From: Octopus vulgaris
Lineage: Eukaryota
DNA: 64,000 bases
Direction: 5' to 3'
NCBI GenBank assembly: GCA_951406725.2
Contig: OX597822.1
Coordinates: 24,924,001 to 24,988,000 of the forward strand
Made by a program: the position numbers and the translations under genes. The notes beneath the pieces were generated by a model, which had not been told where the DNA came from, did no database searches, and saw only the letters and a list, made by a program, of their open reading frames with translations. This document shows positions 22,182 through 50,580 of this stretch, one piece after another. Position 1 is the stretch's first letter, and every line of letters begins with the position of its first letter.

Positions 22182-22463
22182 ATAAGATCGTTAATTTAAA
22201 TTAAATATCGATCTTATTAAGTGGCCAGCATGGGAATAAAAACCTTCAAAGGTGATAATTATTATTAAAATTATAATTTAGGGTATCTACGAGATACCAT
22301 GCTGAAAATAGCAGCCAAAATCTGACTCTAAAACCACATTAAATTTTTTTTTTGTCTTCTCTCCTTGTGCTGTATGAACATTTAATGTGGTTTTAGAGTC
22401 AGATTTTGGCTGCTATTTTCAGCATGGCGGTATCTCGTAGATACCCTAAATTATAATTTCAAT
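22178..22463. mobile_element. Fold-back element in (TA)n: ~90-nt unique leader plus 77/80-bp inverted arms
   Basis: Arms 22268-22344 and 22380-22459 match except for a 3-nt indel; 35-nt spacer; (TA)n on both sides. Confidence 0.85.
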
Positions 22464-22929
22464 ATATATATATATATATAATAACGCTTCCATCCATCCA
22501 TCCATCCAGACACACATACATGTCTGTGTGTGCGCGTGCGCGCCTGTGTGTAACATTTTAAAGGAATCTAGTTAAAATTTTGCCTAAAGGGCTTCTAATA
22601 TATGCGTTATCTACCAATTTACAACATATGAGAATCATCATCGGTTCATAGGGAAAAAGTTCGGATTAAGAACTGGGAAAACGGGAGAAAATATGAAGTG
22701 AAAAACGTTAGAAACAAAGTGTTCAAAGCGAAGACCGGAGGTCCGAATGCGTCATATTATCGCAGTATTTGAACAGAGTTATAGTTCGGTTTCCATAAAT
22801 GAAAGACGAAGGAATGTGGTTTGCTTGTTTCACGGAACTTTAGTATGGACAGTCGACAGAAAGCAATCTGAACGGAACCCCTTGAAAGCGTTATTCATGC
22901 CCGGGTTTGTCCAACTTGTTCACTGAGTT

Positions 22930-26574: not shown

Positions 26575-27030
26575 TACGTTTCTGATAAGAACCCAATAAG
26601 GTTCGAAAATCGATTAAGGTTGCTCATTTTTTTCAGTCTGCGGAGAAATGGCTCGAGTTTGCCCTGTTTATAATTATACTAAATGTTACTTATATATACC
26701 TAATGTTACTTATATGTTACTTATATCATACCTTGATACTGTGTGGATTAAGATCCCCATTGACAGGCCACTGGTATTTATAGAGTGTTAAACACTTTCG
26801 GTATCCAAATTAGGCCCCTTCATAGAGTAACTGCTGCACTTATTGAGTATATAAACAGTTTGGCTCTTTGTTTCTCTGAAGACCGACCAAATGTTGTAGA
26901 TACCTCTGATGAGAACTCAATAAAGTTCGTAAATCGATTAAGGTTGTTCATCATTTTTTCTTTCAGTCTGCGGAGAAATGACTAAAATTTGCCCTGTTTA
27001 TAATTATACCATATGTTACATATATATTAT
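26575..27030 (+). ncRNA. Tandem HHR-containing repeat (retrozyme / Penelope pLTR-like), 324-nt period
   Basis: HHR motifs at 26582-26620 and 26902-26944, each followed by ~100 nt of shared sequence; predicted cut sites 26616 and 26940. Confidence 0.75.
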
Positions 27031-36489: not shown

Positions 36490-36898
36490 AGGAGTGGTTA
36501 TGTGGTAAGTAGCTTGCTTACCAACCACATGGTTCCGGGTTCAGTCCCACTGCGTGGCACCTCGGGCAAGTGTCTTCTACTATAGCCTCGGGCCGACCAA
36601 AGCCTTGTGAGTGGATTTGGTAGACGGAAACTGAAAGAAGCCCGTCGTATATATGTATATATGTATGTGTGTGTATATGTTTGTGTGTCTGTATTTGTCC
36701 CCCCAACATCGCTTGACAACCGATGGCGGGGTGTTTACATCTCCATCACTTAGCGGTTCGGCAAAAGTGGCCGATAGAATAAGTACTAGGCTTACAAAGA
36801 ATAAGTCCTGGGGTCGATTTGCTCGATCGACTAAAAGCGGTGCTCCAGCATGGCCACAGTCAAATGACTGAAACAAGTAAAAGAGAGTAAAAGAGTAA
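36490..36898 (+). mobile_element. Full-length SINE A
   Basis: Colinear with 19697-20088. Confidence 0.92.
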
Positions 36899-36984
36899 AT
36901 GATCTGACTGTATTTTCAAGCGATTGTGTATCAATCTGTGCATCTATGCAAGTAGTATGTATATATATATATATATATATTCTT

Positions 36985-37293
36985 TTATTCTTTAATTCTT
37001 TCACTTACTTCTGTCATTTGACTGCGGCCATGCTGGGACACCGCCTTTAGTCGAGCGAATCGACCCCAGGACTTATTCTTTGTAGGCGTTGTATTCTATT
37101 CTATCGGTCTCTTTTGCCGAACCGCCATATTACGTGTACGTAAGCACACTAATATCCGTTGTGAAGCGATGGTGGGGAGACCAACACAGACACATAAATA
37201 CTCACATACATATACGACAGGCTTCTTTCAGTTTCCGCCAACCAAATCCACTTATAAGGTTTTGGTCAGCCCGAGGTTATAGTAGAAGACACT
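36985..37293 (-). mobile_element. SINE A lacking its tRNA head, inverted relative to 36490-36898
   Basis: Reverse-complement homology across tail and body. Confidence 0.88.
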
Positions 37294-38759: not shown

Positions 38760-38912
38760 TCAGAAATTGCGAGGATAATCTGGTGCTTGACTGAAGATAG
38801 AGGGCTTCGAATGCCCCTTCCTTGTTTTCATTGTATCGTCTATCTGGATGTTTTGTTGTCCCATTTGGTATCACTTAGCTGTCCGGATGTTTTGCATTCT
38901 TGTCCCATTTTG

Positions 38913-39946: not shown

Positions 39947-40014
<68 letters not shown>

Positions 40015-40042
40015 GATATATATGTATATGTATATATATATG

Positions 40043-40073
<31 letters not shown>

Positions 40074-40074
40074 G

Positions 40075-40166
<92 letters not shown>

Positions 40167-41028
40167 GGAAAACACACACACACATGCTCACGTAATAGGC
40201 CACTCCACGATTTCAACAAAAATTTCACTCCCAATGCATTGCTGAACACGTGTGACTACAGTAGATGACACTTTCCCAATGTGTCACACAGCAGAATCGA
40301 AACAAAATTCAACGTGGTTTCAAAGAGAACTTCGTAACCATGCAGCCATAGATATCTTAATATATGAGAGATGATCATTAATTCTTGAAGAATTTGAGAC
40401 AGAATTTTATCGATTGTCTTTCAAAGTCAGTGATATTATCGGAGGAATAGTTTGAGGTGTTTTATAATATTATATAATTTTTCGTTTCTATGGTAACAGG
40501 AAAATATAGCTATCTGGTATAGATCTTTCCATATTTCTCGAATTCCTGTGTTTATAGACGATTTTTCAGTAGTTTTTGCTTTTTCAATGATTATTGTTCT
40601 TTCCATTGGAAGCAGATAAGTTGTTTTCATAGATTCTTTGTGCGTGCGCATGCGCGAGTGCATATCAGTGTATGCGTGTGTGTATGTTTTTTTATGTGTG
40701 TGTATATGTGTGTGTATAAGTATGTGTGTGACTGTATAAGAGAGAGACTGAGTATGCGCACGCGTGTACGTGTGTGTATGTCACGTCTTACATTTTCTGT
40801 CTACTAATGTTAAATACCTTTTTCCTTCCAAGCAATCTGAAGATTACTAAAGAAAACAGAGCCATATTGCGTGCGCGTGCACACACACACACATAGACAC
40901 ACACATTGACACACACACACACACATGCACACATACATGAATGCATACATATATACATTCATAGTCGCACTAGCAGGAATACATGCAGGCGGTTCTGCAC
41001 AGTCACACAGTCACACACACATACACGG

Positions 41029-41106
<78 letters not shown>

Positions 41107-41220
41107 GTCTGTCTGTCTGTCTGTCTGTTTATCTTTCTAATCTATCCGTATGTATGTATGTATGTATGTATTTATGTATGTATGTATGTATGTATGTATG
41201 TATGTATGTATGTATGTATG

Positions 41221-41287
<67 letters not shown>

Positions 41288-41289
<2 letters not shown>

Positions 41290-41641
41290 CGGAGAAATAC
41301 TCGCATAGCAAGTAATTTGATCTGAGATCGTGTGCTGAAACGAAAACAATTGCAGCGTGGAAGGTGTTTGTAAGCCATTTAAGAAACACACAAAAGCCGT
41401 TCGATTCACTTCAACATTTAAGTTTAATTTGTCAAAATATTTTCGTCGCTAAAATCCGCGACCTATTCACTGACAAAAATCCGTGCTGCATCTCCGAGAT
41501 GTAGCACGGATTTTTGTCAGTGAATAGGTCGCGGATTTTAGCGACGAAAATATTTTGACAAATTAAACTTAAATGTTGAAGTGAATCGAACGGCTTTTTT
41601 GTGTTTCTTAAATGGGTTATAAACACCTTCCACGCTGCAAT

Positions 41642-41644
<3 letters not shown>
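41288..41644. mobile_element. Fold-back element in (TA)n: ~58-nt leader plus 299-bp near-perfect palindrome (41346-41644)
   Basis: 149-bp arms, about 4 mismatches, 1-nt centre at 41495; HHR-like motif at 41513-41562 and its mirror. Confidence 0.92.
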
Positions 41645-41680
<36 letters not shown>

Positions 41681-41698
41681 TGATATATATATTGAGGT

Positions 41699-41781
<83 letters not shown>

Positions 41782-42635
41782 CCTCAAGAATAATCAGCCG
41801 AAATTGCGAGGATAATCTGGTTCTTGACTGATGATAGAAAACTTCGAATGACTCGTCCTTGTTTTCTTTGTATTGTCTTTCTGGATGTTTCGTTGTCCCC
41901 TTTTTGTATCACCTAGTTGTCCGGATGTTTTGCGTTCTTGTCCCATTTTGTATTTTATATATATATGTGTGTGTGTGTGTGTGTATGTTTGTGTGTGTGT
42001 CTTTGTGTGCGTGTGTTGAAAAATACAAGTATATCAAATATCATACAACATTAATTTTCGAGTTATTGAATTATCTCTGCCTTTAGGATGCATTATAAGT
42101 AGCAAATGACAATTAAATTCAGTTCCATATAAGAAAGTGAGATAATTTCAAGAAGAAGGAGGATTCTCCAAAGTTGGCATGCTAGCAGTAATCCAAAGAA
42201 ACTTGTGTGTTTATGTGTGAAATAGAAATTGGAACTAAAGAAGTTAGTTGCAAGTACTTCGTTGGTGGAGTTTTAGAAGAGTGTCATGTTAAATGGCAAA
42301 CGTTTAAGAACATATGCCAAACTAAAGACAAGCTTGCTGCAATTTTTCCGATGTATAATTTTGGTACAAATCCTAAATCATTATCTGATGCTGCAAGGAT
42401 ATGTTTCAGGATAGAAATCTAGAGGACTCAAGGGCATAATAGTTTTTCAATGAAGGATCCCGTGGTAATGATGGATTCAAATTTTGACACAATACCAGAA
42501 ATTTTGGGGTAGGGGTAAGTCGATTACATCGTCCCCAGTGCTCAACTGGATCTTATTTTATCGACTCCAAAAGGATGAATGGCAAAGTCGTCGACCTCGG
42601 CAGAATTTGAACTCAGAACGTAAAGACGGACGAAA

Positions 42636-42699
<64 letters not shown>

Positions 42700-42736
42700 G
42701 TTGTTGTTGTTGTTGTTATTGTTGTTATTGTTATTA

Positions 42737-42828
<92 letters not shown>

Positions 42829-42829
42829 G

Positions 42830-43345
42830 AGTGAGAGAGCAGCGCATGCCAGCAAAGTGACACTGGGGTAAAATATGCGAAGTGCAATATACCCATCATG
42901 ATTACCCGTCTGATTAAGGTGCACCAGGCACATGCATCACAACCATATATGCGCGACATGGTGGTTTCATATCAAGATAAAAAGCGCATGACCTATCAGG
43001 TGGGGCTCAGCTAGAATTTTCTTCAGGTCGACAACCCCATCCCGCTCAAAAGGTCCTTGAATAAGGTTTGTTTAAGGATGATGAGCGAAAGACCCATGTT
43101 TCCAGAGGTGAATTATTCAAACTCCATTGAATTTCTCTAAACACGTGGTTATGATGCTCACCCACTACTTCTGCACATATCATCAGCCAATAAGTGATAT
43201 GCTCAACTGGTTAAGGTCAACCAACTGACAAGCAAATCTGTGGTATTGAGCAGAATATTTGCTGTAGCCCATCTTTTATACTAAAACAAAACATATTGCA
43301 TGCTAGCATTTCCAATCAGTCAAGATCAGAAGCCATGAGAACCAG
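42830..43345 (-). mobile_element. Probable non-LTR retrotransposon 3' fragment inserted in (TAA)n
   Basis: ~510 nt of complex sequence with (TTA)n on both sides; short SWLLILTDW could be an ORF end; family and strand uncertain. Confidence 0.45.
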
Positions 43346-50463: not shown

Positions 50464-50580
50464 AACAGTTTGGCTGTTTGTTTGTCTGGAGACTGTTAGA
50501 ATGCTGTAGACGCCCCTGATGAGAACCTAATAAAATTCGAAAATCGATTAAGGTTGTTCAACGTTTTGTCAGTCTGCGGA
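50462..50580 (+). ncRNA. Third copy of the 26.6-27.0 kb HHR repeat, catalytic core intact
   Basis: Homologous to 26852-26975; CTGATGA 50516-50522, GAA/TTC helix II, GAAA-A-TCGA-T-TA (cut after 50550); C.A mismatch at the base of helix I. Confidence 0.75.

What the first reader, a model, noticed from the sequence alone, without database searches (positions are those of the whole stretch)
41288..41644. 299-bp almost spacerless palindrome encoding a variant hammerhead on both strands
Seen: 149-bp arms with ~4 mismatches and a 1-nt centre, plus a unique leader, inserted in (TA)n. The right arm reads UUUGUCA-GUGAAUA-G-GUCGC..GCGAC-GAAA-A-UA-U-UU-UGACAAA, which is HHR topology with G3/U8 in place of C3/G8. 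Established: positions 3 and 8 form a tertiary pair and G3-C8 is a tolerated compensatory variant; Penelope-like elements often insert with an inverted terminal repeat. Inference: a Penelope-derived fold-back element with a non-canonical HHR that standard CUGANGA searches would miss. It is also a likely dsRNA or cruciform source.
Basis: partly seen in the sequence, partly recalled or inferred. Interest (0 to 1): 0.75.

Follow-up and report, generated by a model that had tools for sequence, protein, structure and literature searches.

The report
Head-to-head Penelope stub, swapped-core hammerhead
This palindrome is two short end-pieces of an abundant Penelope-type jumping gene joined head to head in a TA repeat, a known kind of insertion; the family's predicted self-cutting RNA motif has two paired core letters swapped (G3-C8), this copy has lost even that pair, and cutting is untested.

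Summary
The palindrome is real: 149-bp arms, 4 mismatches, a 1-nt centre and a 58-nt leader in (TA)n. It is a stub of a GIY-YIG/RT Penelope-like element (PLE) with at least 6,504 motif copies in this genome. The arms are the element's pseudo-LTR and the leader is its 'tail'; leader plus left arm encode the parent ORF's first 30 residues (29 identical). Such inversions are routine: 28 of 54 position-sampled loci, 25 of them with the same long-end/short-end pattern. The family core is G3-C8 (94 of the first 100 motifs listed). U8 occurs in 99 of 6,504 and looks like decay, so this copy is probably a dead variant. A sister PLE family keeps C3-G8 and differs by compensatory changes at 5 of 13 pairs, so the motif is a true hammerhead homologue. 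'Fold-back' is doubtful: 7 of 48 typed inverted pairs have arms from different subfamilies, favouring two RNA templates primed from both target strands. Cleavage, transcription and dsRNA are not shown. The scan has noted such palindromes and a G3-C8 PLE core before on other DNA of this genome.

The parts
41225..41287 (.). (TA)n target microsatellite, left (follows (TATG)n and (TCTA)n)
41288..41345 (-). 58-nt PLE 'tail': the sequence between the family's two fixed 3' ends; codons 12-30 of the parent ORF
   Evidence: outer ends cluster at arm positions 1-9 and 55-64; parent copies run on from here into the ORF
41346..41494 (-). left arm: pseudo-LTR of the PLE, sense on minus strand, long-end product (with the tail)
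41289..41378 (-). stub of the PLE ORF, ATG at 41378-41376, 30 codons, 29 of 30 identical to the parent N-terminus
   Evidence: (L238, L239); parent N-terminus 39% identical to the sister family, E 7e-29
41428..41477 (-). type I minimal hammerhead motif, G3/U8 in this copy (family G3-C8)
41495..41495 (.). junction of the two 5' ends; both arms stop at the family's preferred inner end (arm positions about 198-210)
   Evidence: 44 of 54 loci
41496..41644 (+). right arm: second pseudo-LTR copy, sense on plus strand, short-end product (no tail)
41513..41562 (+). type I minimal hammerhead motif; G3 41520, U8 41525, bulged G 41527, palindromic helix III 41549-41554, predicted cut after U17 41555
41612..41644 (+). 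ORF start (ATG 41612-41614) and first 11 codons, ending at the short fixed end
   Evidence: sequence, mirror of 41378
41645..41778 (.). imperfect (TA)n target microsatellite, right

Best explanation
The element is two 5'-truncated copies of the pseudo-LTR of a GIY-YIG/RT Penelope-like retrotransposon joined head to head in (TA)n, likely made in one insertion when the element's protein cut both target strands and primed cDNA on two RNAs. Shown: parentage, end pattern, hammerhead homology, G3-C8 family core. Inferred from PMC11167929: the two fixed ends, 33 and 91 nt after the ORF's first base, are two internal reverse-transcription start sites and the 58 nt between them is the tail. Inferred: both cDNAs ran about 150-210 nt to a preferred stop, probably the RNA 5' end, and were joined there. 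The hammerhead is a minimal type I motif predicted to work only as a dimer or with protein help. The family has swapped the 3-8 pair to G3-C8; this copy's G3/U8 is likely a decayed, inactive state. No host function is proposed.
For: Parent: of 20 stretches fetched around ORF hits, 18 hold an arm; one has no arm and one no hit. In ORF-linked copies the arm lies in sense about 1.1-1.2 kb behind the stop codon (6 of 6 shown). 21 genomic places read through the long end towards the ORF; L239 shows UTR, then pLTR with G3-C8, then ORF. [quoted passage not shown] 155 homologues were found; the top one is 57% identical and named RT-domain protein of Octopus vulgaris. End rule: 28 of 54 position-sampled loci are inverted pairs, 25 of them long+short. 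Both ends also occur alone (17 long, 7 short), so the short end is a primary end. The sister family has the same two ends about 56 nt apart inside its ORF start. TSD-like repeats of 9 nt or more flank 24 of 51 non-(TA)n loci, palindromes included. Two templates: 7 of 48 typed inverted pairs differ in linked loop-II subfamily letters. Hammerhead: 5 of 13 pairs change on both sides between the families, including 3-8. The bulge before 10.1, G10.1-C11.1 and the palindromic helix III match the PLE min-HHR traits (PMC4209133). Only 1 of 97 aligned pieces ends at the predicted cut site, matching PMC11167929's finding that uncut RNA is the main template.
Against: Arms of one palindrome are more alike than random pairs (1.8% against 3.1% mismatch in young copies, 5.5% against 7.7% in old), 41 of 48 typed pairs are concordant, and 24 rare variants are shared between partner arms. 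Self-priming or later conversion would also give this. The window's own arms share the rare U8. Discordant arms could come from gene conversion with other loci. The pair set mixes query-biased and position-sampled loci (3 of the 7 discordant pairs are from the position-sampled set). Pfam found no family in the 839-aa L096 frame; RVT_1 is below cut-off even in homologues. The covariation rests on two families, so each change is one event. The sister motif has C at the normally invariant A9 (94 of 100) and both have U17, so both cores may be degenerate relics. In the MFE, G3 pairs with U17. The TSD count has no shuffled control in AT-rich flanks.
Confidence: 0.8

Rival explanations
1. Same PLE parent, but the inversion is made by self-priming (fold-back) of one cDNA or antisense template and trimmed by the endonuclease at the short end, as proposed for rotifer Penelope (PMC3846280) and.
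For: Partner arms are more alike than random pairs; 41 of 48 typed pairs are concordant; 9 of 69 pairs have no mismatch; 24 rare variants are shared. Both window arms carry U8, which is 1.5% genome-wide. Centres are tight, often with a few shared letters.
Against: 7 of 48 pairs carry different subfamily haplotypes at linked sites. The short end also begins solo copies and long ORF-bearing copies. A PLE protein cuts and extends both strands from two RNA sites in vitro (PMC11167929).
Confidence: 0.25
2. The insertion is as described, but the G3-C8 motif of the whole family is a non-cleaving structural relic (for example a protein-binding site), not a working ribozyme.
For: The C3G/G8C double mutant only partly restores cleavage (PMC11167929, PMC8495972). 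The triplet is UUU and G3 can pair with U17. The sister family has C9. Cleavage is not needed for insertion in vitro (PMC11167929). 1 of 97 pieces ends at the cut site.
Against: The swap keeps Watson-Crick pairing at 3-8, and four other pairs covary; G12-A15 and U16.1 are kept in both families. A G3-C8 variant is reported as more active when position 17 is not C (PMC3884650, 'data not shown', G17 context).
Confidence: 0.45
3. The palindrome is a fold-back DNA transposon (MITE) or an assembly artefact.
For: Long inverted arms in a TA target. The locus could not be confirmed in reads: only Logan contigs were served and none spans it.
Against: The arms differ at 4 sites and end asymmetrically at family-fixed positions, with unique flanks on each side. 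The arms are the 3' end and ORF start of an RT/GIY-YIG element. TSD-like repeats are long and variable. Copies are 5'-truncated.
Confidence: 0.03

Closest known systems
Inverted 5'-truncated insertions of EN+ Penelope-like elements with pLTR and tail (PMC3846280, passages; PMC8557442 Fig. 2 legend, passages)
   Same: Head-to-head inverted pLTRs; tail on one end only; pLTR holds the first ORF codons (11 here, 30 with tail; 12 and 22 in Adineta Pen2a); TSDs of about 10 nt; (TA)n preference; C-terminal GIY-YIG.
   Different: Tail is 58 nt (30-40 nt described). About half of sampled loci are short inverted stubs. Subfamily-discordant arms argue against the self-priming model offered in PMC3846280.
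Poseidon PAc of Anolis (PMC11167929, parts 1-2 of 4 read)
   Same: Two fixed ends inside the ORF start that bound the tail; AT-rich target; hammerhead in the pLTR; copies do not begin at the hammerhead cut site.
   Different: PAc has C3-G8 and its ORF starts at stem II; here the ATG lies about 50 nt behind the motif. The parent has the CX2-5CxxC linker, which Penelope/Poseidon lack (PMC8557442).
Minimal type I hammerheads of metazoan PLEs (PMC4209133, parts 1-2 of 4 read)
   Same: Extra nucleotide between 9 and 10.1, G10.1-C11.1, palindromic helix III, pairs of motifs on opposite strands 100-700 bp apart, a natural covariation at 3-8.
   Different: The natural covariation described there and in PMC3088659 is U3-A8. 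G3-C8 appeared in my searches only as a laboratory double mutant. Helix I is 7 bp, helix II 5 bp, position 17 is U.
Animal non-LTR retrozymes (bioRxiv 10.64898/2026.07.22.740005, part 1 of 5 read)
   Same: Non-coding type I hammerhead repeat tied to PLE pLTRs.
   Different: Retrozymes are tandem arrays. This element is one inverted pair, co-linear with its autonomous parent's pLTR.

Membership tests
EN+ Penelope-like element (parent family) | Single ORF with RT and C-terminal GIY-YIG endonuclease | tested here: met
   839-aa open frame in L096 with DKSG, MDVVSLY, GGAIG, RYVDD and VYQIKC..YIGET. Pfam GIY-YIG above cut-off on the L052 fragment, but no Pfam family on the whole frame. Homologues named RT-domain proteins.
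EN+ Penelope-like element (parent family) | pLTR at the 3' end that repeats the region before and in the ORF start | tested here: met
   Arm follows the ORF and UTR and precedes the ORF in L239. The window leader plus arm encodes the N-terminus.
EN+ Penelope-like element (parent family) | Optional tail at one end; inverted 5'-truncated copy | tested here: met
   25 of 28 inverted pairs are long+short among 54 position-sampled loci.
EN+ Penelope-like element (parent family) | Variable TSD or microsatellite target | tested here: met
   24 of 51 non-(TA)n loci have a flanking repeat of 9 nt or more, with no shuffled control. The TSD cannot be read at the window copy, which sits in (TA)n.
Neptune clade | CX2-5CxxC linker before GIY-YIG | tested here: met
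   CQSNCAVC at residue 710 of the L096 frame. The motif is shared with Nematis.
Neptune clade | Placement in an RT phylogeny with reference PLEs | not tested
   No named reference PLE proteins were in hand; Neptune versus Nematis is left open.
Type I minimal hammerhead of PLEs | Helices I and II with G10.1-C11.1, bulge before 10.1, GAAA, UH | tested here: met
   95.6% of cells paired over 7 rows, 5 pairs with double changes between two families.
Type I minimal hammerhead of PLEs | Palindromic helix III for dimer formation | tested here: met
   AAUAUU, each column 68-69 of 69 arms. The sister family's AGAACU is not palindromic.
Type I minimal hammerhead of PLEs | Canonical core C3 U4 G5 A6 N7 G8 A9 | tested here: not met
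   Family G3..C8 (94 of 100 listed); window copy G3..U8.
Type I minimal hammerhead of PLEs | Watson-Crick pair between positions 3 and 8 | tested here: inconclusive
   Met for the family (G-C) and the sister family (C-G; 98 of 100 listed). Not met for this copy (G-U).
Type I minimal hammerhead of PLEs | Self-cleavage | not testable with these tools
   Only contigs were served; they cannot show RNA ends.
Non-LTR retrozyme | Tandem head-to-tail units each with a hammerhead | tested here: not met
   One inverted pair in the window. Sampled loci are solo or inverted.
MITE / fold-back DNA transposon | Symmetric fixed termini, fixed short TSD, transposase parent | tested here: not met
   Asymmetric ends, variable centres, RT parent.

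The most novel reading that the evidence does not exclude
A recently active Penelope-like family runs on a natural swapped-core (G3-C8, U17) hammerhead that cleaves as a dimer or with its own protein. Its many short palindromes record a dimeric RT-endonuclease copying two different RNAs at once, one from each of two internal start sites, rather than folding back.
Probability: 0.3. Interest if true: 0.6.

Novelty: new variant of a known kind. Interest (0 to 1): 0.35.

Why it matters
The palindrome itself is ordinary PLE debris. Two family-level points matter to specialists. First, thousands of copies carry a G3-C8 core that CUGANGA descriptors and Rfam miss, with a C3-G8 sister family as a natural control, so hammerhead counts in PLEs may be low and 'hammerhead-less' PLEs deserve a second look. 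Second, the long-end/short-end rule plus arms from different subfamilies gives a genomic test between the published self-priming model and two-strand, two-RNA priming for how PLE inversions form.

Tried and rejected
Rfam scan of 40000-43000: only below-threshold miRNA-type hairpin matches, no hammerhead. L012, where the arm abuts a GIY-YIG ORF, was first taken as a possible parent and rejected: it is a nested insertion in another PLE, in the wrong orientation and with no arm behind that ORF's stop. Solo copies ending in CATCTCCGTG suggested a short TIR or a spliced first exon; rejected as a general feature, because only 15 exact matches exist genome-wide and no matching splice donor lies in 6 parent UTRs. 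The branch-point/pyrimidine/AG-like sequence just 5' of the arm suggested an intron end at the palindrome centre; unresolved, since inner ends scatter on both sides of the AG and share no upstream exon. A cap-derived extra C at the inner end was tested: 8 C, 7 G, 3 other among 18 position-sampled ends, inconclusive. A propagating U8 sub-lineage was not supported: 2 of 28 U8 arms in the pattern-selected set are of the young type, and 1 of 11 partner arms also has U8. Why both window arms have U8 (shared source or conversion) stays open. Public runs: 20 of 24 listed hold the stretch, but all laid runs are contigs of a multi-copy repeat and none spans the element, so locus confirmation, splicing, editing and RNA ends could not be read. 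PDB search: no hit. No ORF of the parent family lies elsewhere in the window; frames of 130 aa or more are microsatellite or repeat frames. Whether the locus lies in an intron was not tested. The helix I probabilities printed are mis-indexed and were not used. Luense et al. (PMC5785218) on PLE hammerhead variants is not held and was not read; it, and the supplementary alignments of PMC4209133 that I did not open, may already contain G3-C8.

Full report
OBSERVATION. The arms are 41346-41494 and 41496-41644, 149 nt, 97% complementary, with one base between. There are four mismatches and the centre is C41495. A 58-nt leader (41288-41345) precedes the left arm, and (TA)n flanks both sides. The 299-mer folds as one hairpin (-251 kcal/mol, z -43.7). 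Rfam gives no hammerhead among 37 matches at E <= 10. Below, 'q' counts from 41288 (q1) towards the centre (q208); the element's sense strand runs from high q to low q.

FAMILY AND PARENT. The own genome (2.8 Gb) gave 414 first-look candidates for q1-208, 40 scored, at 95-98% identity. A 19-nt pattern over the core, with positions 3 and 8 open, matches 6,504 times, control 0. Some copies continue beyond q206 into a microsatellite-rich UTR and an ORF. Of 20 stretches fetched around ORF hits, 18 hold an arm, and in the 6 printed the arm sits in sense about 1.1-1.2 kb behind the stop codon. [quoted passage not shown] Pfam scored GIY-YIG above cut-off on the L052 fragment but found nothing on the whole frame. 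155 homologues were found; the best is 57% identical and named by its source as an Octopus vulgaris RT-domain protein. 21 places read on from q1 towards the ORF, and L239 has UTR, pLTR and ORF in a row. The window's 41378-41289 (minus) translates to 30 residues, 29 identical to that N-terminus. So the arms are the pLTR and the leader is the tail of an endonuclease-bearing PLE. The linker fits Neptune or Nematis, not Penelope/Poseidon (PMC8557442, passages); no tree was built.

HOW COMMON THE PALINDROME IS. I fetched the first 60 loci listed by position and dropped 6 as further copies of one duplicated event. Of the 54 left, 28 are inverted pairs, and 25 of these join a long end (q1-9) to a short end (q55-64). 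26 are solo: 17 long, 7 short, 2 other. In 44 of 54 the farther-reaching arm ends at q198-210, in 6 it runs into the UTR, in 4 it stops earlier. Where the target is not (TA)n, 24 of 51 loci have a flanking repeat of 9 nt or more, around palindromes too (no control). This is the layout described for EN+ PLEs: inverted truncated copy, one-sided tail, pLTR overlapping the ORF start (PMC3846280, passages; PMC8557442, passages). It argues against an assembly artefact. The locus itself could not be confirmed in reads.

THE HAMMERHEAD. Of the first 100 motifs listed, 94 are G3-C8 and 6 have a single other letter at 3 or 8; none is C3-G8. G3/U8 occurs 99 times in 6,504 and mostly in old-type copies (2 of 28 arms young-type), as expected of decay. 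Flanking columns 169-188 were fixed by the pattern and are no evidence. Among the unselected columns, subfamily differences fall in loop II, and the one common helix I change is U-A to U-G (9 of 70). A sister family, found with the top homologue, has intact 1311-1312-aa frames in tandem units and 3,770 motif matches. Its N-terminus is 39% identical to this family's and it has the same two 3' ends about 56 nt apart. Its motif has C3-G8 (98 of 100 listed) but C at position 9 (94 of 100). On a 7-row alignment (5 rows of this family, 2 of the sister) with a structure I named, 5 of 13 pairs change on both sides: 3-8, one pair of helix II, 15.2-16.2 and two of helix I. These are single events between two families, but all keep pairing except one helix I pair. 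The bulge, G10.1-C11.1 and palindromic helix III match PLE min-HHRs, which cleave weakly and as dimers (PMC4209133, parts 1-2 of 4; PMC6765202, passages). Against activity: the UUU triplet, G3 pairing with U17 in the MFE, and only partial rescue by C3G/G8C (PMC11167929; PMC8495972, passages). That a G3-U8 wobble is worse than G3-C8 is my inference.

MECHANISM. In vitro, an Anolis PLE protein cuts and extends both strands of AT-rich DNA and starts cDNA at two internal RNA sites that bound the tail. It is predicted to be a dimer and uses uncut RNA (PMC11167929, parts 1-2 of 4). The ends here fit: 33 and 91 nt into the ORF, both also starting solo copies, and only 1 of 97 aligned pieces stops at the predicted hammerhead cut. 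I infer that each target strand primed one cDNA, one from each site, and that the two met at their 5' limits. Among 69 inverted pairs with 50 nt or more of overlap (all loci fetched to that point, duplicates removed, partly query-biased), 48 could be typed at loop II. 7 carry different subfamily types in the two arms, which one folding-back cDNA cannot give; 41 are concordant. Partner arms are closer than random pairs (1.8% against 3.1% in young copies) and share 24 rare variants, which fits a common source copy, self-priming in part of the cases, or later conversion. The window's arms share U8 yet differ at four sites, so this copy does not decide the matter. What sets the inner end near q205-210 is open. 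A splice-acceptor-like sequence lies there, but ends fall on both sides of its AG with no shared upstream exon, so a start site or RT stop is more likely. D. virilis Penelope has an internal promoter and an intron in its pLTR (PMC2377424, passages).

FUNCTION OF THIS COPY. Because the arms are head to head, any read-through RNA meets the antisense arm first and buries the motif in a 148-bp duplex. Only RNA starting near the centre could fold the hammerhead, and here its 3-8 pair is broken. dsRNA, editing and cruciform formation are plausible for any such palindrome but untested: the RNA-labelled runs are guesses and contigs of a multi-copy repeat.

NOVELTY. The insertion type is known. Natural covariation at 3-8 is in print as U3-A8 (PMC3088659, passages; PMC4209133). 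My searches for G3-C8 found only laboratory variants: 'hammerhead'+'G3-C8', 1 paper (PMC3884650, passages); 'hammerhead'+'C3G'+'G8C', 2 papers, listings only. The most relevant paper on PLE hammerhead variants (PMC5785218) was not held, and figures and supplements of PMC4209133 were not seen, so 'not in print' is weak. My reading was in the notebook before I opened the scan's earlier notes. Those notes record the same palindrome type, the long/short rule and a G3-C8 PLE core on other DNA of this genome; one gave me the lead to PMC3846280. Verdict: a new variant of a known kind, interest 0.35.

Noticed in passing
G000 sister family, e.g. L229, L231, L233 (C19:14369500-14379499, C1:59391500-59401499, C17:6330500-6339499): Very young PLE family with intact 1311-1312-aa frames, tandem units of about 4.6 kb, a long Asn-rich insert in the ORF, and a hammerhead with C3-G8 but C at position 9 (94 of 100 listed) and a non-palindromic helix III; 3,770 motif matches.
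   Followed up: partly
window 50516-50560 (+), related copy 26848-26974: Canonical CUGAUGA..CGAAA hammerhead-like motif with palindromic AAUCGAUU, next to microsatellite; probably another PLE pLTR.
   Followed up: no
window 14452-14420 (-): Minimal hammerhead-like motif CUGAUGA-A-GAGC..GCUC-GAAA-CGU with its element ending in (TA)n.
   Followed up: no
window 41800-41950 and 38763-38912: Two 88%-identical copies of a repeat with a degenerate CUGA(U/A)GA..CGAA motif, ending in (TA)n; one lies 160 bp right of the finding.
   Followed up: no
window 22263-22464: A second, about 200-bp imperfect palindrome with a central spacer, ending at (TA)n on the right.
   Followed up: no
window 36569-37293: Two diverged copies of a common interspersed repeat in inverted orientation around a (TA)n (73% identity).
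   Followed up: no
L160, L162, L193, L194, L196, L197, L200 (C1:4.38-25.5 Mb): One old palindromic insertion (q1-180 plus q62-200) with the same flanks recurs 7 times among 60 loci on C1, so it is carried inside a larger duplicated unit.
   Followed up: no
L012 (C8:20445050-20448256): A copy of the arm is nested in the ORF of a different GIY-YIG PLE, just before its endonuclease domain.
   Followed up: partly
L051, L052, L062: Long insertions in which part of the ORF is inverted against the UTR and flanked by long and short pLTR ends, so the same end rule holds for multi-kilobase inversions.
   Followed up: partly
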